A stretch of DNA of 64,000 bases from Nitrososphaerota archaeon (GTDB lineage: Archaea; Thermoproteota; Nitrososphaeria; Nitrososphaerales; Nitrosopumilaceae): contig JAGWFT010000002.1 in NCBI GenBank assembly GCA_028867755.1, forward strand, positions 128,001 through 192,000, given 5' to 3'. The translations under genes were made by a program, and so were the position numbers. The first letter of the stretch is position 1, and each line of letters opens with the position of its first letter. This document shows positions 1,965 to 64,000 of the stretch, piece by piece. The notes beneath the pieces are model-generated. The model did no database searches. It had not been told where the DNA came from and was given only the letters and a program-made list of their open reading frames with translations.

Positions 1965-3312
1965 AACATGACTTTTTGACTAGGTTGTAGACATTTCTGA
2001 TTATTTGACCAGATGCACCCAAGTGGTTTTCTGGAACAAAAATTCTGTCTATCTCTTCTTCTGTGAGATGCAATGAGATTGCACTATCGTTTTTTACTGC
2101 ATCTTTGAAATCAATTCTATTCTCTGATGCTGCAAATGCAACACGCTGTATGTCTCTGTATGCTTCAAATCTGGGAACTCCTTTCTTTATGAGAGCCTCA
2201 AGTACAAATTCTGAAAAGATCTGACCTTTGGTGAATTCCAAATTATTTCTGATTTGTTCCTCGTTGACATATAACCTTCTTAGAATTATTGTCATCGCTT
2301 CTAGCATCTCGTCTATGAGAATGGAGCCTGTGGGAAGAATGAATCGTTCATTGGCAGAATTTGAAAGATCTCGTTCATGCCAGAGTGGAATGTTTTCAAA
2401 TGCTACAGAAATCTGGCTTCGCAATAGCTTTGAAAGTGATGTAACACGTTCGCTTTTTACTGGGTTTCTCTTAACTGGAACCGCACTACTGCCCATCTGC
2501 CCTTTCTTGAATGGTTCTGCCACTTCTCCTATCTCTGTTCTTTGAAGATTTCGTATCTCTACTGCCAACTTTTCTAGCGTAGCGCCAATTAGTGCTATAG
2601 AAAAAATAAACTCTGCATATCTCTCGCGAGGCACAACTTGAGTTGTGACGTCTGCAGGAAACAAGGCAAGTTTTTTTGCAACTCTTTTTTGAACCTCAAG
2701 TGCCTTTGCTCCCATGAGAGAGCCTGTTCCTACCACTCCAAGAGTCTTGCAAATTAGAATTCTTTTCTTTACTTCCTCAATTCTTTCAATGTGTTTTGCC
2801 ATTTCAAGTGACGAGTTTGCAAATTTTAAACCAAATGAAATTATGCTCGCATGTTGACCATGAGTTCTGCCAACTGCTGGTGTATCCTTGTACTTTACTG
2901 CTAATTCTGCTAAAATGATGGCAAGTTTTGCTATCTTGGGTTCTATTATGCTAATTGCATCTCTTATTTGCAAAGAATTACTAGTGTCAACAAGATCATT
3001 GCTTGTCAAACCGTAATGAATCCAAGGCCTTGCAGAAGATTTGCATATCTCACTGAGCGCTTCCACCAAGGCTGCTGTGTCATGATCGCTTTTTGCCTCT
3101 AACTGTTTTACTCTCTTTACAGTTATCTTTCCAGATCTTGCCATTTGTGCTATGTTCTGTGCTGCACTTTTTGGTATCATCCTTATCTCTGATTGTGCCT
3201 GAGCAACAGCTCCTTCGATCTCTAGTTGATATGAAATCTTTTTTTGGTCGTCAAAAATTTCCTTCATGGCATCTGTTCCGTAACGACCTGCATCAATTGG
3301 CAGTATTGTCAT
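1951..3312 (-). CDS. purB: Adenylosuccinate lyase
   Basis: GRTHGQHA and GSSAVPVKRNP fumarase-superfamily signatures; start placed at ATG 3312. Confidence 0.95.
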   Translation of the reverse strand: MTILPIDAGRYGTDAMKEIFDDQKKISYQLEIEGAVAQAQSEIRMIPKSAAQNIAQMARSGKITVKRVKQLEAKSDHDTAALVEALSEICKSSARPWIHYGLTSNDLVDTSNSLQIRDAISIIEPKIAKLAIILAELAVKYKDTPAVGRTHGQHASIISFGLKFANSSLEMAKHIERIEEVKKRILICKTLGVVGTGSLMGAKALEVQKRVAKKLALFPADVTTQVVPRERYAEFIFSIALIGATLEKLAVEIRNLQRTEIGEVAEPFKKGQMGSSAVPVKRNPVKSERVTSLSKLLRSQISVAFENIPLWHERDLSNSANERFILPTGSILIDEMLEAMTIILRRLYVNEEQIRNNLEFTKGQIFSEFVLEALIKKGVPRFEAYRDIQRVAFAASENRIDFKDAVKNDSAISLHLTEEEIDRIFVPENHLGASGQIIRNVYNLVKKSCFKFS

Positions 3313-3418
3313 ACATCTAAAAGAAACCATACTAGCAAAATAAATCTACTTGAAGAGATGAGCCTGTGCCTTACTCATGATTTAAATTGTGTCCAAATAT
3401 CCTTTTTCGCAGAAAGAA

Positions 3419-4870
3419 ATGACTTCGTTAACTCCAAAAAAAATAGGTAACATGGAATATAGAATTGAAGCAGACGCTTCTCGGGGCATGAAGGTTCCAG
3501 TCACAATATATGCAGACGAAGGATTATTGCAAAAAATGCTAACTGATAGGACTATTACTCAAGCTGTAAATGTTTCTACTTTGCCAGGAGTTGTAAAACA
3601 CGTGGTGGTACTCCCAGACGGCCATGAGGGATACGGCTTTCCTGTTGGAGGAGTAGCAGCCATGGATGCTGAAGAAGGAATGATCAGCCCTGGTGGAGTT
3701 GGCTATGACATAAACTGTGGTGTCAGGCTGATAAGGACAAACCTCACAGAAAAAGATGTAAGGCCAAAACTCAAGGACCTCGTGCTTGAGCTCTTCAAGT
3801 CTATTCCTTCTGGTGTTGGCTCTAAAGGAGCTGTAAAACTAAGTTCCTCAGATCTTGATGAGGTTCTTGTGCGGGGAGTACAATGGGCAGTAGATCATGG
3901 ATATGGTTCAAAAGATGATGCTGATGTATGCGAAGAAAATGGCCAAATAAAAAACGCTGACCCAAATAGAGTATCACAAACTGCACGTAAGCGAGGCTCT
4001 CCACAACTTGGTAGTCTTGGTTCAGGTAACCATTTTCTTGAGGTTCAGCGTGTTGAACAAATTCATGATAAAGAAGCTGCAAATAGGATGGGAATTTACA
4101 ATGAAGGACAAATAACTGTGCTAATCCACTGTGGTTCACGAGGATTTGGGCATCAGGTCTGTAGCGATTATCTTAGAACATCTGAACAAGCACTTCAAAA
4201 ATATAAAATAAATCTAGTAGACAGAGAACTTGCCTGCGTGCCAAATTCTTCTGAAGAGGGAGAGTCTTATAGAAAAGCAATGTTTGCAGCGTTGAACTTT
4301 GCGTGGAGCAACAGACAGATGATCACACACTGGACAAGAAAGGCATTTGAGAGAGTCTTCGGGCAAACCGAAGCAGATTTGGATATGCGACTTATCTATG
4401 ATGTAGCTCATAACATAGCAAAGGTTGAAAAACACAAAATTGATGGTGAATTACGCTCAGTGGTAGTTCACAGGAAAGGTGCAACAAGAGCATTTCCAAA
4501 AGGCAGAGATGAGATACCGCAGAAATATCGTGACTTGGGGCAACCTGTCTTTATTCCAGGTTCTATGGGTACGGGTAGCTGGATTCTTTTAGGAAAACCT
4601 GGCTCAATGGACTTGAGCTTTGGTTCTACTGCACATGGAGCAGGAAGAATGATGTCAAGATCTGCAGCACGACGTAGTTTCACTGAAAGCCAAGTTCAAA
4701 AATCTCTTGGTGACAAAGGAATTTTCATAAAAGCTTTGACAAGAGAAGGTGTAGTTGAAGAGACACCAGAGGCATACAAGGATGTGGATGCCGTGGCAAA
4801 TGTATCTCATGAAATGGGGATAGCAACAAAAGTAGCTAAACTTGTTCCTATAGGTGTAATCAAGGGATGA
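3419..4870 (+). CDS. rtcB: RNA-splicing ligase RtcB
   Basis: PDGHEGYGFPVGG, GYDINCG, GNHFLE, HRKGAT and HGAGR motifs; start placed at ATG 3419. Confidence 0.97.
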   Translation: MTSLTPKKIGNMEYRIEADASRGMKVPVTIYADEGLLQKMLTDRTITQAVNVSTLPGVVKHVVVLPDGHEGYGFPVGGVAAMDAEEGMISPGGVGYDINCGVRLIRTNLTEKDVRPKLKDLVLELFKSIPSGVGSKGAVKLSSSDLDEVLVRGVQWAVDHGYGSKDDADVCEENGQIKNADPNRVSQTARKRGSPQLGSLGSGNHFLEVQRVEQIHDKEAANRMGIYNEGQITVLIHCGSRGFGHQVCSDYLRTSEQALQKYKINLVDRELACVPNSSEEGESYRKAMFAALNFAWSNRQMITHWTRKAFERVFGQTEADLDMRLIYDVAHNIAKVEKHKIDGELRSVVVHRKGATRAFPKGRDEIPQKYRDLGQPVFIPGSMGTGSWILLGKPGSMDLSFGSTAHGAGRMMSRSAARRSFTESQVQKSLGDKGIFIKALTREGVVEETPEAYKDVDAVANVSHEMGIATKVAKLVPIGVIKG

Positions 4871-5307
4871 CAGAGGAAGACAAAGAACTAGAACTTTTGA
4901 AGGCAAAAAGACTACTTGAGATGCAAAAAAACCTCTCTCAGAAACAGAAAATTGACGAGTCAAAAACGCAACAACCAGCGCCTTCTGTACCTGCACGAGA
5001 AGTTGTTGTCAAGCAACTTGGCTATAGGGGACTTGAAGTTCTTGAAAATGCAGAGGCACAGTTTCCCGGGGAAACCAAATTGGTGATAGAAAAACTTGCA
5101 GAGCTAATGCAATCTGGAGAGGTATCTGAAATAATTGATGGAGGTAAACTGCTTACGCTTTTTAGGTCAATTGGAGTACGAGTCAAAGTACAAACCACGA
5201 TAAAAGTTGAACAGGATGGAAAATTGGTATCATGGTCTGACAAATTAAAGAAGGTAGAAGATGATCTTGACGTAGTTGATACAGATATTCCACCTGAAAA
5301 TCCTTAG
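4867..5307 (+). CDS. PDCD5-like double-stranded DNA-binding protein
   Basis: DxELELLKAKRLLEMQ start and ExLAxLxxSG core; overlaps rtcB stop (ATGA). Confidence 0.7.
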   Translation: MTEEDKELELLKAKRLLEMQKNLSQKQKIDESKTQQPAPSVPAREVVVKQLGYRGLEVLENAEAQFPGETKLVIEKLAELMQSGEVSEIIDGGKLLTLFRSIGVRVKVQTTIKVEQDGKLVSWSDKLKKVEDDLDVVDTDIPPENP

Positions 5308-5388
5308 TTTATTTATGCCGACAAATCAAATTTTATAATTGCATGGCCAACCTAGAATAGTAAAGATGGCTTTATCTGCAGGCTATAG

Positions 5389-5724
5389 TTGGGGAACTTG
5401 ATGAATAACAGACCAACTATCTTAGAAATTGCAAGTACTAGTTATGAAACAGAAATTGAATTGATTTCTTTTGCAATGAATAGCTTACAATTGCTTTGTG
5501 ATGTACGTAATGGATTTCTTATCAGCGAACCCATGCATAGATTTGGTTGGGCGTTTTTCAAGATATTGATAAAAGATGAACTCTTGTCTGCGATGCAACT
5601 AAAAGTTGATGACAAGATCCAAAAATCTAAAGGAAAAAAATATGAAGAAAAATTTGCTAGCTTTATGGCAAATCTCTTCGAACAAAATAATGCAAAAGTA
5701 AAGGTAAAATTGATAGAAGGCTAG
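5389..5724 (+). CDS. Hypothetical protein
   Basis: 111-aa ORF filling the gap between convergent genes; normal composition. Confidence 0.7.
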
Positions 5725-6125
5725 ACTCTTCTTCCTCTTTTGCCACCCTTTTTACGGGTAGTGTCATGAGGAATTGGCGTTACGTCATCGATTCTTCCGA
5801 TCTTAAATCCGCCTCTTGCTAGTGCTCTAATTGCTGCTTGTGCTCCAGGTCCTGGAACTCTAGATCCGACTCCGCCAACAGCTCTTACTCTAATATGAAG
5901 TCCTGTGAAGCCCTTGTCATGAGCAGACTCGACTACTGCTGCAGTAGACTTCATTGCAGCATATGGAGATGACTCGTATCTGTCTGCATTTACATGTCTT
6001 CCACCAGAACTGATGGATACAGTCTCGGCTCCGGAGACATCTGTGATATGAACAATAGTATTGTTATAACTACTATAGATGTGGGCGACGCCCCATTTCT
6101 CCTTAGTTTCTTGCTCTGACAACAT
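5721..6125 (-). CDS. rps11: 30S ribosomal protein S11 (uS11)
   Basis: [42 protein letters not shown]. Confidence 0.98.
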
Positions 6126-6155
6126 TTCAGAGCTCTATAACGGGTTTAAAAAACA

Positions 6156-7112
6156 TTAGGATCTAAGATGAACCCAACCACATCGTTTGAGAATCCTTTC
6201 TTGCGTCTTGTCTCTGAGAACGACGTTTTTGCCATTGGTGACATGGCCTATTTCAAAAATGGGAACATGGAGTCTTTTTGCAAATCTCCTGACTGCATTC
6301 ATGTTCTTTGTAGGTATTGTGGCAACTATCTCGTATTCTTCGCCGCCGCAAAAGACAAGATCTGTCAAGCTAACTTTCTTATTTTTTGCAAATGTCTCTA
6401 CGTCGGCTCCAGTTGGAATTTTTGTTATGACAAATCTCTTCTTGCTCAATTTGCTCATGTCATTTAGAGTGATAGATAGACCATCGCTTGAATCCATGGA
6501 CGAAGAAAAATATCTCGCAGATCTCAATCCGAACTCTAGTCTTGGTGTAGGTAAAAAGACGCTTTTCTTACATTTTTTAACAAATTTTGTATGTGTTCTG
6601 ATGTTTTGAAGAATCATCTTTAATCCTGATGAAGAATACCCAAAAGGCCCAGACACAATTATTCTGTCACCATTTCTTGCTCCACCTCTTGGTATTATTC
6701 TGTCGCCAATTCCAAACATAGAAACTTCAATGACAATCTCTTTTCCCTTGTTTACATCTCCGCCAACTATCTTTACGCCAAATTCCTTTGATGCTGTAGA
6801 AAAGCCATTTGCTAGCTCACTTATCATTTTTCTAGTAAATCCATGAGGAATAGCTAGTGAAATAGTCGCGTATCTAGGCTTGATTCCCTTGCAGGCAAAG
6901 TCGCTCACACATGAAACCATGCTCTTTCTAGCCACCTGATGTAACTTCATGCCAAGTGGAACGTCTGTACTTTGAACCAACATGTCTGATTTTACAATAA
7001 AGTTTCTGCTTGGCATTGTCAAGATCTCCAAGTCTTCTGGAACAAAGTTTGATTTTTGTCCAAAACGACTCTGGAATATTCTAATGATTTCTATTTCGTC
7101 TGGCTTCTTCAT
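6156..7112 (-). CDS. thiL: Thiamine-monophosphate kinase
   Basis: SDFA, IVGGDV, DSSDGL and GGEEYE motifs. Confidence 0.9.
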   Translation of the reverse strand: MKKPDEIEIIRIFQSRFGQKSNFVPEDLEILTMPSRNFIVKSDMLVQSTDVPLGMKLHQVARKSMVSCVSDFACKGIKPRYATISLAIPHGFTRKMISELANGFSTASKEFGVKIVGGDVNKGKEIVIEVSMFGIGDRIIPRGGARNGDRIIVSGPFGYSSSGLKMILQNIRTHTKFVKKCKKSVFLPTPRLEFGLRSARYFSSSMDSSDGLSITLNDMSKLSKKRFVITKIPTGADVETFAKNKKVSLTDLVFCGGEEYEIVATIPTKNMNAVRRFAKRLHVPIFEIGHVTNGKNVVLRDKTQERILKRCGWVHLRS

Positions 7113-8394
7113 AGCTCTTACTGACTAGACTGGTCACTTCTTTTTCTATATCCTTTACTTTCCTAAAATCATTTGATTCAGCAGAAACTCTGATACTGTG
7201 TTCTGTATTGGATTGTCGCACTAGAACCCAACTATCATCATCTATGATTGACTTTACCCCATCCATTGTTATTATATGACTGAATTTCTTTTTCATCTTC
7301 TTTGTTAGTATTTCAATAGTTTTTTTGTGAAATTTCGAGTCTACATTTACCTTGGCTCTTCTTTGGAAATAACCTTCCATGAATTTGACAATGTCTAAAA
7401 ATTCCTTTGTTCCAACCATTGATGCAATCAAACCGCTGGTGAGCAGCCCATCTCTACACATATTAAATTCAGGTAAAATAAATCCAGCACTACTTCCTTC
7501 CCCACCTGCTTGAGAATTTGTCTTTAACATTAAATCAACAACATTGGCTTCTCCCACCTTAGATATCTTAACTTGACCTCCTTCATTGTTGATGAATTTT
7601 TCAATTGCAACACTTGTATCTATACTCAAAACAAATTTTTTGTATCCAATTTCAAGTGCTTTAGCAACTCCCAGTCCGAGAGTAGTATCTGGGGTTTGCT
7701 TCTTACCATCTCTTACTACTACTAGCCTGTCTCCATCTAAATCAAATGCAAATCCAATGGCTCCATTCTTGGATAGTCTTGTCAGGTCTGATAGCCTGTC
7801 AGAAGTTGGATCAGGACCACGCGAGGACTTGCCGGGAATGTGATTTATTTTTTTTACTTTGCATCCAATCCTGTCTAAAAGCAATGGGGCTACTTCAAAG
7901 GCTGCTCCGCCTCCAACGTCTACAACAACATTTGGTCTGCCCTTTACATTACCAATTAATTTTGCTGCCTCGTTGACATAGCTTGAATCAATCTCCGATT
8001 CTGAGCCAATTTTTTCCCTTGAATCTGGTTTTTTCTTTAGTAGGCATTCTAATTCTGATTCATTGATGCCTCTGCCATCTATGATAAATTTTAGACCGTT
8101 CCATTCAAGGGGATTGTGAGATGATGTTACTATCAATCCACTCCCATACTTTCTTGATTCTCTGAATGCTACTGGAGTAGGTGCTATTCCTAAATTGTAA
8201 ACTGCGATGCCTCTTTCCATGAGAGCCGCAGAAGCAACATGAGAGAGAATCTCACTTGATGGTCTGGTATCACGAGCCAGAGCACATTTTTTTGATTTTA
8301 TTAGATGAGAAAAATTATAACAAAAATGAATTATATCTTTGAGGTTAAGGTCGTCTAAAAAAATTCCGCGTACTCCGGAAATTGATACCTTCAA
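7081..8394 (-). CDS. Phosphomannomutase/phosphoglucomutase family
   Basis: SISGVRG, TSSHNP (phospho-Ser loop), FDLDGDR, GGEGS, VRQSNTE; start placed at TTG 8394. Confidence 0.92.
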   Translation of the reverse strand: MKVSISGVRGIFLDDLNLKDIIHFCYNFSHLIKSKKCALARDTRPSSEILSHVASAALMERGIAVYNLGIAPTPVAFRESRKYGSGLIVTSSHNPLEWNGLKFIIDGRGINESELECLLKKKPDSREKIGSESEIDSSYVNEAAKLIGNVKGRPNVVVDVGGGAAFEVAPLLLDRIGCKVKKINHIPGKSSRGPDPTSDRLSDLTRLSKNGAIGFAFDLDGDRLVVVRDGKKQTPDTTLGLGVAKALEIGYKKFVLSIDTSVAIEKFINNEGGQVKISKVGEANVVDLMLKTNSQAGGEGSSAGFILPEFNMCRDGLLTSGLIASMVGTKEFLDIVKFMEGYFQRRAKVNVDSKFHKKTIEILTKKMKKKFSHIITMDGVKSIIDDDSWVLVRQSNTEHSIRVSAESNDFRKVKDIEKEVTSLVSKSYEEARRNRNH

Positions 8395-8416
8395 TGACTG
8401 GAAAGCACAAAGGCTT

Positions 8417-8424
8417 TTTATAAA
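8417..8424 (+). promoter_or_regulatory. Archaeal TATA box of tRNA-Thr
   Basis: TTTATAAA about 24 nt upstream of the tRNA 5' end. Confidence 0.6.
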
Positions 8425-8447
8425 CTCTGATGGCATTGCGAACCAAT

Positions 8448-8521
8448 GCCTCGATAGCTCAGCCTGGTAGAGCGAACGCCTCGTAAGCGTTAGGCCGCGG
8501 GATCGAATCCCGCTCGAGGCT
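8448..8521 (+). tRNA. tRNA-Thr(CGU)
   Basis: Acceptor GCCTCGA/TCGAGGC, anticodon arm AACGC-CTCGTAA-GCGTT, T arm GCGGG-ATCGAAT-CCCGC. Confidence 0.95.
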
Positions 8522-8953
8522 CATCAATTACATTTTCAAAAATTTTACAAATATTTTTGTTATATGGAATGTCGAAAATTCAAAATTGTTTGTTCTGTTC
8601 GTGTCCTTCATCCAGAGTTTCTATATCTAATTCTAATTCTTTTGCAAGCCCTTTCCACCATACTAACACTTCTGTCATCCCAATACTCCCCAAACATAGA
8701 CAAGACTACACCTTTATAGATCTGTCGGTCGCTTTATACCCAATCTGCAGATCCATTTCTGATCTAAAAAATTCATTAGAACTTTTCAATAATGATTTTT
8801 GTATCTTTTTGTAAATGTAGTAAAGGAATTCTGCAAGATCGCTTTTTTGAAATCTGATGACACATATCTCAAAATCCACTTTGAAACATTTTAGATAATC
8901 TATTGGTTTCTAGATTAGAGTTTCTGAAATTAAAAATGTAGTAGAGGTGTGGC

Positions 8954-57978: not shown

Positions 57979-58176
57979 TCCAATTTTGATAACCTAAACC
58001 AATTTAACATTAACTTTGGCATCAAACATTGCTAAAAGATCAAAAAAGGCAGCAAAGCTATTAGAAATATTACAAAATGGCTCAAAACAGCATGTTACCA
58101 GTACACAACTCAGGCAAGGGCATGCTAAAGTCTAAGTTACAAAAGCATTATCTTTCTGTTTTGATAATAAAAAACA

Positions 58177-58926
58177 ATGCAGTCAAACTGCTCTAGTCTT
58201 GATTTTGGTGCTATCAAGAACTCTTTTCTGTTTTACAAGACCGTAACAAGCCAGTACAAAAACCCTCAAGTATTAAGGTCTGTCAGGGAATTGATACCTA
58301 AAGATGTACTGGAGGCAGACTTGGTTCCATCACTTTTGAAGTGGTTCAAGGGTTTTATGACCTGGACTCCAAACCAAATTGTCTGCGACAAATGTAACAC
58401 AGGAGACAAGATGCAAGTTACGATACAAACAGGAAATACTTGGATGATACGCAAAACAGAGGTTCATACTTGCAGTAAGTGTGGAACAGAGAAGATAATT
58501 CCAAGATACAATGACGTGTTGAAAATTGCCAAGACAAGATATGGAAGATGCGGTGAATGGTCCATACTTTTTGGCGCCATCCTAAATTCATTATCTATTG
58601 AATCTAGAATTGCATATGATTACCTTGATCACTGCTGGAATGAGATACTTGTTGATGGCAAGTGGTTTCATGCAGATTCTACGTTTGAATATCCATATTC
58701 GTTTGATAATCCTCACTATTACGAACGAAACTGGAAGAAACAGTACGTCTATGTCATTGCATTCTCGCCAGACAAGATAGAAGACGTTACAGGCAGATAC
58801 ACAGAACAATGGGACACAGTTTTGTTACGAAGAAAGAGCTTGGGCCAGTCTGGAAGTGTCAATGTAAGCTCCATTGACGACCTTCAGAATTTTTACACTA
58901 CTATACAATCACTTTATAGCAATTAG
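58177..58926 (+). CDS. Peptide:N-glycanase (Png1/NGLY1)-like transglutaminase-fold protein
   Basis: LLKWFK, C70xxC73, C99xxC102, PRYN, TRYGRC125GEW, DH152CWNE, HAD167, YERNWKK, YVIAF, DVTGRY. Confidence 0.88.
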   Translation: MQSNCSSLDFGAIKNSFLFYKTVTSQYKNPQVLRSVRELIPKDVLEADLVPSLLKWFKGFMTWTPNQIVCDKCNTGDKMQVTIQTGNTWMIRKTEVHTCSKCGTEKIIPRYNDVLKIAKTRYGRCGEWSILFGAILNSLSIESRIAYDYLDHCWNEILVDGKWFHADSTFEYPYSFDNPHYYERNWKKQYVYVIAFSPDKIEDVTGRYTEQWDTVLLRRKSLGQSGSVNVSSIDDLQNFYTTIQSLYSN

Positions 58927-60203
58927 GACTTTTGTGATGTATCAACTGATCTTTGTTTTCCAGGCTTTAGGAAAAATGCACAAGTTATGATTGCTCCGGA
59001 ACACAACTCAATTGCAGTGAAACTATAAAACGGCAACGCATAACTTATTGTGAAAAGTATTGCCCCTATGATTGTTCCAGCAGACGCTGACACATTTCTT
59101 AATACGTCATATACAGCAAATAGTGCTGGTCTTTTCTCTCTTGGTGTCAGCTCAATTTGAAGAGCCTCATGTGTTGGGCCATAATTTACGCCTGTTGCAA
59201 TCATTGCAAGCAATATTGCAAGTATCCACCAAAATGAATGCTCTAGTATAAGAAATATCGAGAGCGGGGCTGTCGTGATGACAGACAGCAATAGTATCTT
59301 TCTCTTGTCAAACCTGTCTGAAACAATTCCAAGTGGTGTTCTAACTAGATTTGCAAACAAGATCTGCATGCTCAGTATTATTCCCCACTGGAAGCTGTCA
59401 AGCTTTGCAATGGTGATGCCATAAAATATCAGGTAAGGGCCCATTATCGAATTTGCTACAATAACTAGTATGTAAGCTGAAAGCAATGGAATCAGTGCTT
59501 TTGGTAGCGTAACAAGATTGGACCAGAAATTCTTTGAATGGTAAAATACCGATTCAAAAGACTCTGGATTTTTTCTATTGTGTAACAGTGATTGTTCTGG
59601 TTTCACATGTAACGGTTTTAGCTCGTTTTCACGCAAGAACTTGACTAGCAATATGGTAGAAATTGGTGATATCATAAGTGCTATTATTGCTCCAAGCCTG
59701 AATCCGTCTACTGCTCCCATTGTGTAAACTAGGTATCCGCCCACAAGGGGTGCAAAGATGGAGGGTATGGTGGTAAGTGTTTGGTAAAGTGAGAGCTGAG
59801 CAGTCCTATTTTTTTGTACTGTGGCATCAGCTACTAGTTGTCGCCAAGCAGTAGAACTGATTCCCCCTATTGCTCCAATCAATATTGGAATTGAAAGCAC
59901 GGCCCAGCTGTTTGATAGGTAATAACCAAAAAGTATGGCAGGTCCTATCCATGATGTCATGATTGCAATCTTTTTGAGATTGTGCCTTCCAGTAATGACT
60001 CCGCCTGCAATAGTTGATGGTATTCCAATGAGTGTTGCAAATGTAGCAATTATTCCATACTGGAGGACTGTTCCACCAAGTGAGGTAAAGTAGATTGGTA
60101 GAAATGATAGTGCAATGTTGCCTATGCTTCCAATTGAAGTGGCAATAACCAGTACTGCAATGTTTCCCCTTGGAATGATCTCTTTCGTATTATTACATCT
60201 GCA
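58923..60203 (-). CDS. MFS transporter; frame open to 60203 but no in-frame ATG/GTG/TTG before 59960 (possible start-disrupted pseudogene)
   Basis: Motif-A-like GVITGRHNLKK upstream of the ORF-track start and GIVSDRFDKRK in the C half; out-of-frame ATG at 60198. Confidence 0.75.
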   Translation of the reverse strand, partial: CRCNNTKEIIPRGNIAVLVIATSIGSIGNIALSFLPIYFTSLGGTVLQYGIIATFATLIGIPSTIAGGVITGRHNLKKIAIMTSWIGPAILFGYYLSNSWAVLSIPILIGAIGGISSTAWRQLVADATVQKNRTAQLSLYQTLTTIPSIFAPLVGGYLVYTMGAVDGFRLGAIIALMISPISTILLVKFLRENELKPLHVKPEQSLLHNRKNPESFESVFYHSKNFWSNLVTLPKALIPLLSAYILVIVANSIMGPYLIFYGITIAKLDSFQWGIILSMQILFANLVRTPLGIVSDRFDKRKILLLSVITTAPLSIFLILEHSFWWILAILLAMIATGVNYGPTHEALQIELTPREKRPALFAVYDVLRNVSASAGTIIGAILFTISYALPFYSFTAIELCSGAIITCAFFLKPGKQRSVDTSQKS

Positions 60204-60274
60204 CTAAATTCTTCTTTAATCTGTTGGGTTGTAATTTTTTGTAAATGAAATTGTTATGTGTCAAAAAAAGGTGT

Positions 60275-60291
60275 ATACCGGGGGTGGGTTT
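60275..60291 (-). repeat. attR-like copy of the tRNA-Met 3' end
   Basis: ATACCGGGGGTGGGTTT is identical to 63828-63844. Confidence 0.9.
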
Positions 60292-60414
60292 AGCTAAATT
60301 AATTTAATACCCTAACAAATTACTGCCTTAATTTCTTATTTTTAGACGTGCGTTACCTATCTTAAACTACCTCTAGATTTAATGGACATCCTGCTATTAA
60401 ATCAAAATATGAAA

Positions 60415-60759
60415 TTACCTTTGCCACATCATGCCATGATAGGTGAAGTTGTTACTCATCATCCATGGACCCATGTACTGATTCTGAAAGTTAGGATTAC
60501 TCATCATACTATACATGAAATCTTTGTTTTGAAACATGTAGTTATACATCTGCTGTCTTAGTTGAGGATCTTGCATCATATATCCCATGTACTGACCTGC
60601 AAACTGTGGATTTCTACCCATCATTTGATTGAAAATTGAAGGGTTTTGGTACATCATTGTATATGGGTTGTAGGTGTTCAGGAAAACTGCGTAACCAATT
60701 CCAATGCCCGCAACAAATACTCCAACTGTAATGCCGATCCAAACGTATCGATTGATCAT
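60415..60759 (-). CDS. Membrane-anchored Met/Tyr/Gln/Asn-rich repeat protein
   Basis: N-terminal TM helix; 18 Met in 114 aa; repeated MMxxNP/DP. Confidence 0.8.
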   Translation of the reverse strand: MINRYVWIGITVGVFVAGIGIGYAVFLNTYNPYTMMYQNPSIFNQMMGRNPQFAGQYMGYMMQDPQLRQQMYNYMFQNKDFMYSMMSNPNFQNQYMGPWMMSNNFTYHGMMWQR

Positions 60760-60961
60760 GAATATAATATGATGATTTTAGATATTATACCAATGACAAA
60801 ATTATCATTACTGAGAATCATCATTTTACTCAGTTATTCCTAAGCAAAATTATCAGATCTGATAATCGGATTTTCTCGTTAAATAGGATCAACGGCTTAT
60901 TCTATCCATGTTCGAAAAACATTGCCAAGTTTGCGGTATTGGTGTAAAGAAAGAGACAACA

Positions 60962-61287
60962 CTAAAGTGATTTAACAAATATTTTTGCACTAGGTGATGC
61001 CTGATGGTGCTTGTTCCACATAAAACAAGACATCTGAAGTTGAGAGGAGATTTGAGTTTGGGATGCCAAATGGTGTAGCAATCTCAAGACAATTGTTTGT
61101 CACCGTACATGTAGGAAGGCTAGCTTGAGAACTGTATGCTGCTAGATCATTTTCCAAAGTAGGATCATTTCATGTAACAATAATTGCAATCATGGAACTT
61201 CCACTTGTTGCAAATACCGTAGGAATGGTCAAAGATGAAGATAAAATCGATAGAACTATTACACTAACGAAAATATTTTTCGTTCAA
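60962..61287 (-). pseudogene. Decayed secreted S53 (sedolisin-like)/S8 peptidase fragment
   Basis: Signal peptide, then IAIIVT*NDPTLENDLAAYSSQASLPTCTVTNNCLEIATPFG...VEQA/HQASPSAKIFV; in-frame TGA at 61170-72 and at least two frameshifts. Confidence 0.65.
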
Positions 61288-61370
61288 CCTATATTATCGC
61301 ATCACTTCTTTCCTATTAGGTTCTTCTTATCTGTGATTTGCATGCATTATGAATAATCATATAAATTATT

Positions 61371-61856
61371 TCAATATGGAGGAGGTTGCACTATAAGCTG
61401 GCCCCTCATGGTAGGATAGTGAAATGTACAATAGTAAGTAAATACACCAGTAGTATTTGCATCCAATGTCATGGTTGTATTCTCACCTGGATGTACAACA
61501 ACATTGATGTTGTACGGCTTGTCAAAGATAGTAAATGAATGATTATCTCCGCCAGGTTGTTCAATGTTAAAAAAGTGGATCACCATTTTATCGCCTTTGA
61601 AGACTGCCATAACGGGCATACTGTAAATATCCTTGGGCATTCCCATTTGGGTCTCATTGAAACCAGGGATCTCACTATCAGACAGCCAAAATTCTCTCTT
61701 TTCTCCAGTGTAATGTTGAATGTTGCTTGTTTGCAGTGTGTTCTGGTTTGTTGCCTGTGATGTGGTGGTGATGGACATTGTTACAGCGATTAAGGCAATA
61801 GTAATTGCAGCAATAGCTATGCCAAGTGTTATTATTGTAGTACTGGAGGACAACAA
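61371..61856 (-). CDS. Membrane-anchored cupredoxin (type-1 blue copper) protein
   Basis: HSFT His and YYCTFHYPTMRG (C-x2-H-x3-M); N-terminal TM. Confidence 0.88.
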   Translation of the reverse strand: MLSSSTTIITLGIAIAAITIALIAVTMSITTTSQATNQNTLQTSNIQHYTGEKREFWLSDSEIPGFNETQMGMPKDIYSMPVMAVFKGDKMVIHFFNIEQPGGDNHSFTIFDKPYNINVVVHPGENTTMTLDANTTGVFTYYCTFHYPTMRGQLIVQPPPY

Positions 61857-61951
61857 AAATTCTAGTTACCTACCTATTTTTAATGATAATCACCATTCTC
61901 ACCAATAGAAATGGTAGGTAGCATATTATGCATTATAAAGAACTGATTGTC

Positions 61952-62167
61952 ATGAATAAAAAAATCCTTTTAGGCATTGCGGTTGGAGTTGTCATTATCG
62001 CTGCAACGCTAGGAGTAAAATCAATCATGGGAGAGAAAATAGCACTACCTGGCGAAGAACACACCGAAAATGCATTAAACTTACAAGAAAACAATCAATC
62101 ACAGATCAAATCACTAACTACAAGTAACGAGTCAAGTTCTTCCGAGTCAACAGAATCTGGTCCATGA
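61952..62167 (+). CDS. Small single-TM protein with Ser/Glu-rich tail
   Basis: MNKKILLGIAVGVVIIAATLG...SSSSESTESGP. Confidence 0.6.
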   Translation: MNKKILLGIAVGVVIIAATLGVKSIMGEKIALPGEEHTENALNLQENNQSQIKSLTTSNESSSSESTESGP

Positions 62168-62207
62168 GAAAGTATCTATTGATCCAAATACGATAGGTTG
62201 AGTAGAC

Positions 62208-62477
62208 ATGGCAGAATTATCAATTACCAATTATGTACTTCTTGCGGCACATCTCATAGTTGGATTTTTACTTGTCTTCTTTGCTGCCAAAGCGTTCAAG
62301 AGAACAAAATATCTTCCTATGGCACTTCTAGTCATAGGATTCACACTTTTGGTTCTTGGAGAAACTGTCATGGAATATGCATTTTCATTTGCTGGCGAGA
62401 GCTTGCAAAAAATAATAGAAGAAGGGTTTGAGATAGCTGGATTTATCGTACTTATCATAGCAGTCAAGAAAAGCTGA
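62208..62477 (+). CDS. Small 3-TM membrane protein
   Basis: Three hydrophobic helices; GFTLLVLGE; 4 nt upstream of the wHTH gene. Confidence 0.8.
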   Translation: MAELSITNYVLLAAHLIVGFLLVFFAAKAFKRTKYLPMALLVIGFTLLVLGETVMEYAFSFAGESLQKIIEEGFEIAGFIVLIIAVKKS

Positions 62478-62481
62478 AAAA

Positions 62482-62823
62482 ATGACAAACGATGATGAGA
62501 TCCTAGGCATATTGGGAGATGAATATAGTAGAAAGATACTTGCAATACTGGCAAAAAATGAGCTCAATGCCCAAGAAATATCAGCAAAACTTGGTATTCC
62601 CGCTTCGACAACCTATAGAAAGATCAAGAGCTTGGAAAGTCTAGGCCTCATAAAGAAGACTAAGGTTGTTCGTACGCTTGAGGGTCTTGACGAAAGTTAC
62701 TACAAGAGTTTGGTCTCAGGTATAGATGTAAAGTTCAGAGATGGCGAGATGTCGTGCAAACTTGAAAAGTTTGCCATGGATGAAAAGATACAAAGGCTTT
62801 GGGAAAAATTCTCAGAAAAATGA
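62482..62823 (+). CDS. ArsR-like winged-helix regulator
   Basis: LGDEYSRKIL...EIS..LGIPASTTYRKIKSLESLGLI. Confidence 0.88.
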   Translation: MTNDDEILGILGDEYSRKILAILAKNELNAQEISAKLGIPASTTYRKIKSLESLGLIKKTKVVRTLEGLDESYYKSLVSGIDVKFRDGEMSCKLEKFAMDEKIQRLWEKFSEK

Positions 62824-62933
62824 ATTGATTTTATTGTAATGCTGTGTTATAGATTTAATAAAATATCTGCTATCATTCTCGTTGATGAAAATGGTAGAAC
62901 CGATTTTATTCCAATCTGCATATTAATTATTCG

Positions 62934-63170
62934 ATGAAAACATCTTCATATGTACTAATGACGCTTGTCATACTTGCCACAAGTGCACCGACACTAGCTC
63001 TTGCACAATATGAAAACGAAGGAGGAGATCAGGGAAACACTGTGATGATCCTGGCAATCTTTAGTTTGACATTATACGTAACCATATCCGCAATACTTGG
63101 CGTAGTTGGATATTCAATTTGGAAAGTATGCAGGATAAGAAGAAAAGCTGCAAAAATGAGAGCGACGTAA
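62934..63170 (+). CDS. Small exported/membrane protein
   Basis: Signal peptide + acidic linker + TM + basic tail. Confidence 0.6.
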   Translation: MKTSSYVLMTLVILATSAPTLALAQYENEGGDQGNTVMILAIFSLTLYVTISAILGVVGYSIWKVCRIRRKAAKMRAT

Positions 63171-63175
63171 TCTTT

Positions 63176-63712
63176 ATGCATAATTTTTCTATCCATTCAT
63201 ACTTGAAAATATCAATAATGATAGTTCTTGCATTTGTTCCCACTCTAGCCTATGCTGATGATGACAATGGATTTAGTACGGCTGCCACTCTTGGCTGGTT
63301 AGCAATTGGCTGTGGAATGGCAGCAAATCTCTCACTTATCATATTCAAAATGATAAAGAAGATGCCTATCATGAAATTAGTAGGCGGTTCTAGTACTTCA
63401 CAAAGTTTGACATCCATGTACCAACCTGTATTGAATTTCCACATCCTGTTAAATTCAGTGGGATTCTTTGCTGGTTTATCGCATGGATTTATGCTCATAC
63501 GAGGACTGGACTACATATCACTCTCATTGGTCATAGTCATGACCGTATCAATGATTAGTGGCATAATACTCAAATTCGCATCTGATAAAAATTTAAAATT
63601 CTTCAGCAGACTAGTTCATGGTCAAGCCATTCTTGCTGCATTACTAGTGACACTTGTTGTTTTACATGTAATTACTAGATGGCATCATGGAATTATCATG
63701 CATTTCATATGA
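63176..63712 (+). CDS. Membrane protein with two His pairs in TM helices (di-haem cytochrome b / ferric-reductase-like)
   Basis: FHILLNSVGFFAGLSHG (H-x13-H) and VHGQAILAALLVTLVVLHV (H-x15-H). Confidence 0.6.
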   Translation: MHNFSIHSYLKISIMIVLAFVPTLAYADDDNGFSTAATLGWLAIGCGMAANLSLIIFKMIKKMPIMKLVGGSSTSQSLTSMYQPVLNFHILLNSVGFFAGLSHGFMLIRGLDYISLSLVIVMTVSMISGIILKFASDKNLKFFSRLVHGQAILAALLVTLVVLHVITRWHHGIIMHFI

Positions 63713-63828
63713 GGTATATGACATATTCTTACAGGTCTGAATCCCAATCTTAACTATGATAATGACACGTAAAAACATCAGTTTGAAACCTTTGATGAGT
63801 GTTACAATATTAGTTTAATACCAAAACA

Positions 63829-63923
63829 TACCGGGGGTGGGTTTCGAACCCACGACCTCCAGATTATGAGTATTACCCTTTTTGTGGAGACTGGCACTCT
63901 AGGCCAGGCTGAGCTACCCCGGC
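63829..63923 (-). tRNA. tRNA-Met(CAU), probably elongator, with 19-nt intron at a non-canonical position
   Basis: GCCGGGG/CCCCGGT acceptor, CCAG...CTCATAA-TCTGG arm interrupted by a 19-nt insert (63872-63890), GTGGG-TTCGAAA-CCCAC T arm. Confidence 0.88.
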
Positions 63924-64000
63924 ATAGATTACGCCTAATTTCAACTGCAATTAAATGTAGCTTGTAGAAAATGTTCGGAAAAATTTCGAAAACTAATTTC

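What the first reader, a model, noticed from the sequence alone, without database searches (positions are those of the whole stretch)
60275..63844. Integrase-less 3.55-kb island inserted at tRNA-Met, bounded by a perfect 17-bp att duplication
Seen: ATACCGGGGGTGGGTTT occurs at 60275-60291 and at 63828-63844. The second copy is the T-loop-to-discriminator end of tRNA-Met. On the tRNA strand the distal copy is followed by a CTTTTTTTG run, as expected for the displaced original terminator. Known: this is the geometry of tyrosine-integrase insertion at tRNA 3' ends. Inference: either a remnant of a larger element, or a small cargo cassette mobilised in trans. No integrase lies inside it.
Basis: partly seen in the sequence, partly recalled or inferred. 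Interest (0 to 1): 0.75.

Follow-up and report, generated by a model that had tools for sequence, protein, structure and literature searches.

The report
Integrase-less mobile island at tRNA-Met
A 3.5-kb block of copper-related membrane genes was spliced into the end of a methionine tRNA gene of an ammonia-oxidising archaeon by a mobile-element enzyme it no longer carries, which is a known kind of genomic island in a group where it has hardly been described.

Summary
The 17-mer occurs exactly twice in the window (60275-60291, 63828-63844; 0 expected). The second copy is the 3' end of an intron-bearing tRNA-Met(CAT). Three congeneric genomes (G121, G192, G154) have the empty site: the same MFS-gene flank joined straight to the tRNA with one copy of the core. 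The island (60292-63827) has no integrase or recognisable remnant. Its cognate enzyme exists in the genus: a 401-427-aa tyrosine recombinase sits directly 3' of tRNA-Met in G185, G189 and G175. It is truncated in G141 and reduced to a ~70-aa relic in G165. G000 gave no match to it. Non-tRNA copies of the core occur in 21 of 59 genus genomes, and 19 of 29 distinct copies carry one homologous arm. Cargo differs between genomes: kdpABC, an NTase/HEPN pair, or this cupredoxin/wHTH/membrane cluster. The cargo is a mosaic with a pseudogene, and the same genes lie elsewhere in relatives. Best reading: a non-autonomous, CIME-like, probably decayed element. This scan has reported similar integrase-less tRNA islands in other archaea.

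The parts
60263..60274 (-). Displaced original tRNA terminator: ACACC plus a run of 7 T on the tRNA strand, directly after the distal core copy
   Evidence: Sequence. Empty-site relatives G121, G192 and G154 have a T-run directly after their tRNA.
60275..60291 (.). Distal att core: a 17-bp copy of the tRNA-Met 3' end
   Evidence: Homology with G121, G192 and G154 runs from the MFS flank up to 60291 and then jumps to 63828.
60292..60312 (+). Element arm of type A: AGCTA followed by a 16-mer that starts 5 nt after the distal core
   Evidence: The same arm family follows 19 of 29 distinct non-tRNA core copies in genus genomes. The 16-mer, with up to 3 mismatches, occurs in the 64-kb window only at the two island ends.
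60415..60759 (-). o1: 114-aa protein with an N-terminal hydrophobic segment and a Met/Gln/Asn-rich repetitive tail; no Pfam family
   Evidence: Homologues lie at unrelated loci in relatives, for example inside a syntenic core stretch in G010.
60975..61360 (-). Pseudogene remnant: homologous to a 150-aa ORF that is open in G192, broken and truncated here
   Evidence: There is 78% nucleotide identity over about 375 bp to G192, where the stretch lies in an open 150-aa ORF. Only a 55-aa ORF remains here. The block of homology with G192 stops at 60975.
61371..61856 (-). Cupredoxin-domain protein of 161 aa with an N-terminal hydrophobic segment
   Evidence: PF13473 Cupredoxin_1 at E 7.5e-8 and PF00127 at E 8.2e-5.
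61928..62167 (+). o3: small protein with one predicted membrane segment and a Ser/Glu-rich tail
   Evidence: no family above cut-off. Conserved next to the cupredoxin gene in G192 and G199.
62208..62477 (+). DUF7521 membrane protein of 89 aa
   Evidence: PF24365 at E 7.9e-8. A paralogue with 86% aa identity lies at G000 C24:130583-130852 in a core-gene context.
62482..62823 (+). Winged-helix transcription regulator of the ArsR/TrmB type, 113 aa
   Evidence: PF01978, PF13412, PF12840 and PF01022 at E about 1e-8. A paralogue with 80% aa identity lies at G000 C24:130858-131196.
62934..63170 (+). o6: 78-aa membrane protein with a signal-like N-terminus
   Evidence: The o6-o7 pair is found at 79-88% nucleotide identity in many genus genomes, in differing contexts.
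63176..63712 (+). o7: 178-aa polytopic membrane protein with a weak DUF4405-like C-terminus
   Evidence: PF14358 at E 0.008, below the cut-off. The start codon is placed by comparison with the G192 homologue.
63790..63827 (+). tRNA-proximal element arm: a copy of the 34-nt motif M, whose right half is the same 16-mer as in the distal arm, followed by AAAAC
   Evidence: M is scored at L046 11790, which is window 63789-63822, with 3 mismatches. Copies of M at 82-92% identity occur in mobile-element-rich loci of G010, G179, G131, G182, G153, G156, G191 and G165, but only once in G000's large contigs.
63828..63844 (.). Proximal att core, which is the functional 3' end of the tRNA
63828..63924 (-). 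tRNA-Met(CAT) gene with a 19-nt intron 5' of the anticodon
   Evidence: ARAGORN with introns allowed; Rfam RF00005 at 47.2 bits.

Best explanation
The stretch 60292-63827 is a non-autonomous integrated element. It belongs to a family of integrative elements in this genus of Nitrosopumilaceae. A tyrosine integrase of that family recombines an element site (attP) with the last about 17 nt of tRNA-Met. Integration rebuilt the tRNA 3' end from the element's copy. It pushed the original copy, with its poly-T terminator, 3.55 kb away. The present island keeps both junctions, meaning the core plus family-specific arms on the inner side of each. It carries no integrase gene and cannot move by itself. 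The most likely history is decay and mosaic reshuffling of a larger integrase-bearing element or tandem array. That would make it the archaeal counterpart of a bacterial cis-mobilizable element (CIME). It could move again only if an incoming element of the same family supplied the integrase. The cargo is a cupredoxin, a DUF7521/wHTH regulator pair, a Met-rich protein and small membrane proteins. Its proposed function, a copper or redox-handling membrane module, is inferred and not shown. Shown here: the att duplication, the empty sites, the cognate integrase family in relatives, its non-detection here, and the pseudogene. Inferred: the order of events and the ability to be mobilised.
For: The repeat is exact and non-random. 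Empty sites with the same MFS flank and one core copy are present in G121, G192 and G154. A 401-427-aa PF00589 recombinase lies immediately 3' of tRNA-Met, at the same topoisomerase-IB/tRNA-Met locus, in G185, G189 and G175. In G175 and G189 the next large gene beside that integrase encodes a HerA/TrwB-like ATPase. A decay series exists at the same site. The integrase is truncated to two overlapping ORFs of 78 and 205 aa in G141. Only a ~70-aa N-terminal relic (tblastn E 3e-21) remains in the 5.7-kb kdpABC island of G165. No integrase is present in the 2.35-kb island of G094 or in this one. Non-tRNA core copies occur in 21 of 59 genus genomes. Of 29 distinct copies, 19 are followed at +4 or +5 by the same arm, which shows one element family. 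The arm 16-mer is found in the window only at the two island ends. Signs of decay and mosaicism: there is a truncated pseudogene at 60975-61360. The three cargo blocks (o1; pseudogene to wHTH; o6-o7) lie at separate or differently arranged loci in relatives. The proximal arm looks shortened compared with the unsplit arm-core-arm units of C13, G190 and G182. Island GC is 0.361 against 0.383 for the genome.
Against: No integrase relic is left in the island, so prior possession of an integrase is inferred from sister islands, not seen here. The sequence next to the tRNA in this island is motif M. It is not the one found beside the tRNA in the integrase-bearing elements of G185 and G165, which carry a related motif in the opposite orientation. 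Descent from exactly that element type is therefore not shown. Cargo identity to G192, G154 and G194 (85-88%) is about the same as core-genome identity (83-86%). The cargo may therefore be old resident genes that were relocated, not recently imported DNA. The 1.2-kb NTase/HEPN unit is bounded by att copies in two genomes with different flanks. That fits units that move as such. The assembly is a bin that includes fragments of relatives, so a chimeric join cannot be excluded formally. A misjoin would not, however, create an att duplication.
Confidence: 0.64

Rival explanations
1. The island is a trans-mobilised mini-element (a satellite or cassette) that never had an integrase. It is a small circle carrying only an att unit and cargo, inserted and excised by the integrase of a co-resident full-size element of the same family. 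That would make tRNA-Met a cassette-accretion site.
For: Both arms are retained. The 1.2-kb NTase/HEPN unit is bounded by att copies in G141 C30 and G094. Homology stops at both att copies (about 9 bp outside the first core, 15 bp past the start of the second), and the flanks differ. The same gene pair lies between two M copies in G182. G010 has core-arm units separating short gene blocks next to an integrase. Unsplit arm-core-arm units exist on C13, C45, G190 and G182 C66. They could be attP sites or tandem junctions.
Against: This particular 3.5-kb combination was seen in none of the 58 other genus genomes searched. It holds a truncated pseudogene and a mosaic of blocks, which is not the look of a streamlined unit. 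G000 gave no match to the cognate integrase. A decay series from intact integrase to relic is visible at the same site in relatives.
Confidence: 0.22
2. The island is ancestral at this site. G121, G192 and G154 lost it by precise excision or recombination between the 17-bp repeats, so nothing was inserted in the G000 lineage.
For: Excision is the exact reverse of integration and leaves the same empty site. Cargo and core divergence from G192 and G154 are similar.
Against: Three of the three relatives that share the MFS flank are empty. G192 and G154 still carry the cargo cluster, but not beside tRNA-Met; in G192 it lies about 105 kb from its tRNA-Met. Several independent losses plus relocations would be needed. 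Either way the unit is an att-bounded mobile segment, so the main claim is unaffected.
Confidence: 0.1
3. The repeat is a chance match or an assembly artefact, and there is no insertion.
For: The bin contains 108 small contigs, of which 107 match other contigs at diverged identity and appear to come from related organisms.
Against: No shuffle of 100 gave a match. The boundaries of absence in three relatives coincide with the repeat to the base. The same core-plus-arm unit recurs in 20 other genus genomes.
Confidence: 0.02

Closest known systems
Cis-mobilizable elements (CIMEs) of Firmicutes, as defined in the review PMC5704250 (I read the passage): elements that have lost their integration and transfer genes but kept attL and attR, often in tandem accretion with ICEs or IMEs at the 3' end of a target gene
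   Same: The island is bounded by attL and attR at the 3' end of a tRNA gene and has no integrase. Integrase-bearing relatives occupy the same site in sister genomes, and tandem or stacked units occur in relatives (G094, G141, G010).
   Different: The host is an archaeon. The parent elements are not shown to be conjugative; only a HerA/TrwB-like ATPase was seen beside the integrase in G175 and G189. Mobilisation by accretion is untested.
Cryptic integrated elements (CIE) of Thaumarchaeota, Krupovic et al. 2019, PMC6563490 (I read passages)
   Same: The host group is the same. Targets are tRNA genes, including intron-bearing ones. Att sites are short (reported mostly under 26 bp, down to 8 bp). 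Elements are small (down to 2.6 kb) and carry wHTH and hypothetical genes.
   Different: In that paper the integrase is by definition the most conserved CIE protein, and this island has none. The term 'tRNA-Met' does not occur in the paper's main text.
Integrase-bearing elements at tRNA-Met in congeners G185, G189 and G175
   Same: The attB is the same (a topoisomerase-IB/tRNA-Met locus). The same core is used, and these genomes hold a distal core copy with a type A arm.
   Different: They encode a 401-427-aa tyrosine recombinase directly 3' of the tRNA, with other element genes beyond it. Their tRNA-proximal arm differs from the one in the window.
Integron gene cassettes
   Same: Both are small promoter-poor gene units bounded by short, partly palindromic recombination sites, and both can be stacked at one site.
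   Different: There is no integron integrase, attI or attC here. The sites derive from a tRNA 3' end, and the enzyme is carried by an element rather than being resident beside the array.

Membership tests
Site-specific integrative element at a tRNA 3' end (tyrosine-integrase type) | Direct repeats (attL and attR), one of which is the 3' part of the tRNA gene | tested here: met
   A 17-bp exact repeat, with the second copy forming the tRNA-Met 3' end.
Site-specific integrative element at a tRNA 3' end (tyrosine-integrase type) | An empty site in related genomes with boundaries at the repeat | tested here: met
   G121, G192 and G154 each have the MFS flank, one core copy and then the tRNA.
Site-specific integrative element at a tRNA 3' end (tyrosine-integrase type) | The element encodes its own integrase | tested here: not met
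   Pfam on 7 ORFs gave no recombinase. tblastn with 6 integrase sequences gave a best E of 0.25. PHROGs gave only HTH hits.
CIME (cis-mobilizable element) | Lacks integration and transfer genes | tested here: met
CIME (cis-mobilizable element) | Retains attL and attR recognisable by a cognate integrase | tested here: inconclusive
   Core copies are identical, and family arms are present on the inner side of both. Whether the shortened proximal arm is still a substrate cannot be told from sequence.
CIME (cis-mobilizable element) | Derived by decay from an autonomous element of the same att specificity | tested here: inconclusive
   There is a decay series at the same site in relatives (G185, G189 and G175 intact; G141 truncated; G165 relic) and a pseudogene in the island. 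No integrase relic is left in this island.
CIME (cis-mobilizable element) | Mobilised in cis after accretion with an incoming element | not testable with these tools
   This needs mating, infection or excision assays.
SSV-type (suicidal) integrase element | The integrase gene is split by integration into N- and C-terminal parts that abut the two att copies | tested here: not met
   No integrase-like ORF touches either att copy. In relatives the integrase gene lies whole beside the tRNA.
Integron cassette | An IntI-type integrase with attI next to an array of attC-bounded cassettes | tested here: not met
   No integrase lies at or near the site in G000. The repeats are tRNA-derived.
Transposon, IS or MITE | Terminal inverted repeats and a target-site duplication made by a transposase | tested here: not met
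   The terminal 16-mers are direct and not inverted. The duplication is the tRNA end itself. No transposase was found.

The most novel reading that the evidence does not exclude
In this genus the tRNA-Met 3' end anchors a cassette system. Small integrase-less gene units carry cargo such as an NTase/HEPN pair, kdpABC or the copper/redox cluster. Each is bounded by a roughly 34-nt, partly palindromic site derived from the tRNA T-arm/acceptor end: either core plus arm A, or its diverged paralogue, motif M. The units would be exchanged as modules between the chromosome and other mobile elements by an element-borne tyrosine integrase acting in trans. That would be an archaeal, tRNA-templated analogue of integron cassette traffic rather than mere decay debris.
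Probability: 0.18. Interest if true: 0.6.

Novelty: new member of a known kind. Interest (0 to 1): 0.36.

Why it matters
Surveys of archaeal mobile elements, including the thaumarchaeal one (PMC6563490, passages read), take the integrase as the defining conserved gene. Integrase-less att-bounded islands may therefore go uncounted. Here one tRNA gene is a genus-wide hot spot: 21 of 59 sampled genomes hold spare att copies. In relatives the spare copies accompany adaptive-looking cargo, including the kdpABC potassium pump in G165. That gives a concrete route by which ammonia-oxidising archaea gain and shuffle niche genes, and it names a candidate integrase and att pair that could be tested in vitro. 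As a kind of island it is ordinary. This scan has already reported CIME-like islands at tRNA ends in several other archaea.

Tried and rejected
SSV-type split integrase: rejected. No integrase-like ORF abuts either att copy.

The arm as a common promoter motif: rejected. The 10-mer at the heart of the arm occurs 3 times in the large contigs against about 6 expected from base composition. The one occurrence near an integrase (C24:995068) showed nothing att-like.

An older decayed att copy at the 58088/58089 junction: not found with up to 5 mismatches.

The three integrases of G000 as drivers: they are C24:603195-604301, C24:993220-994425 and C35:101155-102237. All are 38% or less identical to the G010 integrase that lies about 1 kb from att copies. 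None is near a 17-mer copy. Hits to that family appeared in 1 of 21 element loci scanned. I set this aside as unsupported, not disproved.

tRNA-Phe as a second target of the same cargo: G179, G169 and G186 have the cluster next to tRNA-Phe, but no repeat of 11 bp or more of that tRNA was found there. This is left open.

A general screen for tRNA-derived repeats in G000 gave mostly short, noisy matches. One lead was not followed: a 16-bp match 12 kb from tRNA-Val(GAC).

The search for related loci with the G185 integrase returned only G185's own record, titled 'Nitrosopumilaceae archaeon', so I have no genus name from a tool. 'Nitrosotalea-like' comes from an earlier AI note and is unchecked.

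The metagenome scan with a 24-mer gave 2 short contigs, both distal junctions or arm copies from relatives, and no excised-circle junction of this island. I did not search for the predicted attP junction of this island, because typing it would have meant joining two separate stretches.

The supplementary tables of PMC6563490, which list targets and att sites, were closed. They may list tRNA-Met elements in this genus.

Unpublished genomes (G077, G092, G093, G163, G171, G176) enter only the tallies. No specific claim rests on them.

Full report
OBSERVATION. The 17-mer ATACCGGGGGTGGGTTT is present at 60275-60291 and 63828-63844 and nowhere else in the window, even with two mismatches. None of 100 dinucleotide-preserving shuffles gave a match. 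The right-hand copy is the 3' end of a minus-strand tRNA. Rfam scores RF00005 at 63829-63923 with 47.2 bits. The default run had returned '???'. On the tRNA strand the distal copy is followed by ACACC and seven T's. The window is C35:128001-192000 of a 1.64-Mb assembly. That assembly has four large contigs plus 108 contigs under 2 kb, of which 107 match other contigs, mostly at roughly 65-90% identity. I take these small contigs to be fragments of co-assembled relatives. In the large contigs the 17-mer occurs only at the two places named. Two small contigs (C13, C45) also carry it.

EMPTY SITE. I fetched the tRNA-Met neighbourhood from congeners and aligned it to G000. In G121 the homologue of window 58089-60291 (a transglutaminase-fold gene and an MFS transporter gene) runs straight into the homologue of 63828-64047, with one copy of the core. 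G192 and G154 show the same arrangement: the homologue of window 58776-60291 is followed directly by the tRNA. These three genomes are 83-86% identical to G000 in the core genes to the right of the tRNA. The 3,536 bp between the repeats are therefore absent precisely at the repeat in three relatives. In G010, G035 and G094 the stretch 58089-60274 is missing as well, so the whole zone 3' of this tRNA is variable.

WHAT THE ISLAND HOLDS. The island has seven ORFs and one pseudogene:
- a 114-aa Met/Gln/Asn-rich protein with an N-terminal hydrophobic segment (no Pfam family);
- a cupredoxin-domain protein (PF13473, E 7.5e-8);
- a 79-aa protein with one predicted membrane segment;
- a DUF7521 membrane protein (E 7.9e-8), followed 4 nt later by an ArsR/TrmB-type winged-helix regulator;
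- a 78-aa membrane protein;
- a 178-aa polytopic membrane protein with a sub-threshold DUF4405 hit.

PHROGs gave only helix-turn-helix hits. tBLASTn with six integrase sequences from G000 and relatives found nothing in 58000-64000 (best E 0.25). The 610-bp gap at 60760-61370 is not empty. From 60975 it is 78% identical to a stretch of G192 that lies in an open 150-aa ORF there, and only a 55-aa ORF survives here, so it is a truncated pseudogene. Island GC is 0.361 against 0.383 for the genome.

THE CARGO IS A MOSAIC OF GENUS-WIDE FLEXIBLE GENES. Island DNA finds matches in 52 of 59 genus genomes, G000 included. No other genome has the whole island, and none of the relatives whose tRNA-Met site I examined has it there. 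The block from the pseudogene to the wHTH gene and the block o6-o7 occur at 79-88% identity, separated by 0.4 to 3.4 kb of other DNA, in contexts that differ between genomes. They lie next to tRNA-Phe in G179, G169 and G186. In G197 they are inserted into a site that is continuous in G000. In G192 they lie about 105 kb from tRNA-Met, in a region with no counterpart in G000. Homologues of o1 sit at yet other loci, for example inside a syntenic core stretch in G010. The DUF7521/wHTH pair has a paralogue in G000 itself, in a core-gene context (86% and 80% aa identity). In G199 the same cargo set lies beside a non-tRNA core copy, but inverted relative to it.

THE ATT FAMILY. Among 151 family genomes, 55 have the 17-mer with at most one mismatch, nearly always once, as the tRNA. 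Extra copies are concentrated in this genus. A pattern that excludes the tRNA copy (the core followed by any base except C) hits 21 of 59 genus genomes, with 33 copies listed. I extracted 29 distinct copies, leaving out the unpublished G077 and G176 and two copies for which no locus was returned. Nineteen are followed at +4 or +5 by one homologous arm (at most 4 mismatches to a 16-mer), and many continue into a conserved CATTTTGT block. Five have a second arm type. Three carry a further-diverged variant of the first arm. The G000 copies (window, C13 and C45) share one arm subtype. In the window the arm 16-mer, with up to 3 mismatches, occurs only twice: 5 nt inside the distal core and 5 nt inside the proximal core, both in direct orientation.

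The proximal copy is part of a 34-nt motif that I call M. M recurs at 82-92% identity in mobile-element-rich loci of eight relatives but only once in G000's large contigs. By my count M matches 'core plus arm' at 23 of 34 positions, so I read it as a diverged paralogue of the att unit. The arm is not a common promoter word in this genome: 3 occurrences against about 6 expected.

THE COGNATE INTEGRASE. In G141 a broken integrase gene (overlapping ORFs of 78 and 205 aa) starts about 125 bp 3' of tRNA-Met. Using its C-terminal part as query, 31 of 59 genus genomes have a match at E up to 1e-5, and G000 has none. A search of G000 with the full-length G185 protein also found nothing at E up to 10. 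I examined ten loci with the best matches. ARAGORN finds a tRNA gene in eight of them. It is tRNA-Met in G185, G175 and G189; the G189 tRNA was mis-called Cys, but it holds the core. It is tRNA-His, Tyr, Ser or Thr in the others. In G185 the order is topoisomerase IB, tRNA-Met, then a 427-aa integrase, which is the same chromosomal site as in G000. Pfam scores the integrase as PF00589 at E 2.4e-9. In G175 and G189 the 401-aa integrase lies beside a gene for a HerA/TrwB-like ATPase, with other element genes beyond. G165 has a 5.7-kb island bounded by the core. It carries kdpA, kdpB and kdpC (Pfam) and only a ~70-aa N-terminal relic of this integrase next to the tRNA (E 3e-21). G094 has a 2.35-kb integrase-less island at the same tRNA. 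One site thus shows a series: intact integrase, truncated, relic, none.

INTERPRETATION. The island is the product of site-specific recombination between an element att site and the tRNA-Met 3' end, and it is now non-autonomous. It fits the definition of a cis-mobilizable element: integration genes lost, attL and attR kept (PMC5704250, passage read). I favour decay of a larger element or tandem array, for three reasons: the pseudogene, the mosaic cargo, and the decay series in relatives. Three weaknesses remain. First, there is no integrase relic here. Second, the tRNA-proximal arm (motif M) differs from the one in the integrase-bearing G185 and G165 elements. Third, the cargo is no more diverged from G192 and G154 than the core genome is, so it may be old resident DNA that was moved, not a recent import.

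THE RIVAL. The strongest rival is that such units move as integrase-less cassettes. The 1.2-kb NTase/HEPN unit (Pfam) is bounded by att copies in G141 C30 and in G094. The 83%-identical homology stops at both att copies (about 9 bp outside the first core, 15 bp past the start of the second), and the flanks differ. In G182 the same gene pair lies between two M copies. The G094 island is in fact two such units, separated by a worn core copy. This is what tandem accretion predicts, but it also fits traffic in trans.

COMPARISON WITH WHAT IS KNOWN. Krupovic et al. 2019 (PMC6563490; passages read) describe thaumarchaeal cryptic integrated elements of 2.6-98 kb with short att sites, 57% of them in tRNA genes, including intron-bearing ones. 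The integrase is by definition their conserved gene. The review of archaeal tyrosine recombinases (PMC8371274; passages read) repeats these points. It contains none of the terms 'remnant', 'arm-type' or 'lacking an integrase', which I searched for. I did not read either paper in full. Earlier notes of this scan report CIME-like integrase-less islands at tRNA or gene ends in DPANN, Asgard and soil archaea. They agree with my reading, which I had reached before that look-up.

VERDICT. The thing is a new member of a known kind. The genus-wide att family, the identified integrase and the possible cassette traffic give it moderate interest.

Noticed in passing
L108 (G165:C60) 2997-8738: A 5.7-kb island bounded by the tRNA-Met core carries kdpA, kdpB and kdpC (Pfam) plus an Lrp/AsnC-like regulator, with only a ~70-aa integrase relic. 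The potassium pump is therefore mobile-island cargo in a congener.
   Followed up: partly
L038 (G141:C30) 6219-7442; G094:C1, about 1079700-1082100: A 1.2-kb nucleotidyltransferase/HEPN gene pair is bounded on both sides by tRNA-Met core copies in two genomes with different flanks. In G141 it lies about 2.6 kb from a 396-aa integrase that abuts tRNA-Glu.
   Followed up: partly
window 58089-60274: The transglutaminase-fold (PNGase-like) gene and the MFS gene between the conserved 396-aa gene and the distal att are present in G121, G192 and G154 but absent in G010, G035 and G094. This may be an older insertion layer at the same hot spot. No worn att copy was found with up to 5 mismatches.
   Followed up: partly
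window 58923-60190 (minus strand): By my reading of the sequence, the MFS reading frame stays open about 77 codons upstream of its first ATG, GTG or TTG (59960), with no standard start codon in that stretch. Either a non-standard start is used or the N-terminus is truncated.
   Followed up: no
G000 contigs C1-C112 other than C24, C35, C46 and C57: There are 108 contigs of 0.5-1.4 kb, and 107 of them match other contigs, mostly at roughly 65-90% identity. They look like fragments of co-occurring relatives binned with this genome. C13 and C45 carry unsplit or otherwise flanked att units of the same arm subtype.
   Followed up: partly
G000 C24:290104-290180 and C24:302046-302061: A 16-bp same-strand repeat of part of tRNA-Val(GAC) lies 12 kb from the gene. 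It may mark another integrated element.
   Followed up: no
L060, L061, L064 (G179, G169, G186): The cupredoxin/DUF7521-wHTH/o6-o7 cluster lies within about 300 bp of the 3' end of tRNA-Phe in three congeners, without a detectable repeat of that tRNA of 11 bp or more.
   Followed up: partly
window 63828-63924: By my reading, position 72 of this tRNA is U, which would give a G1-U72 wobble at the top of the acceptor stem. Other genera of the family have the variant of the 17-mer that would give G1-C72.
   Followed up: no
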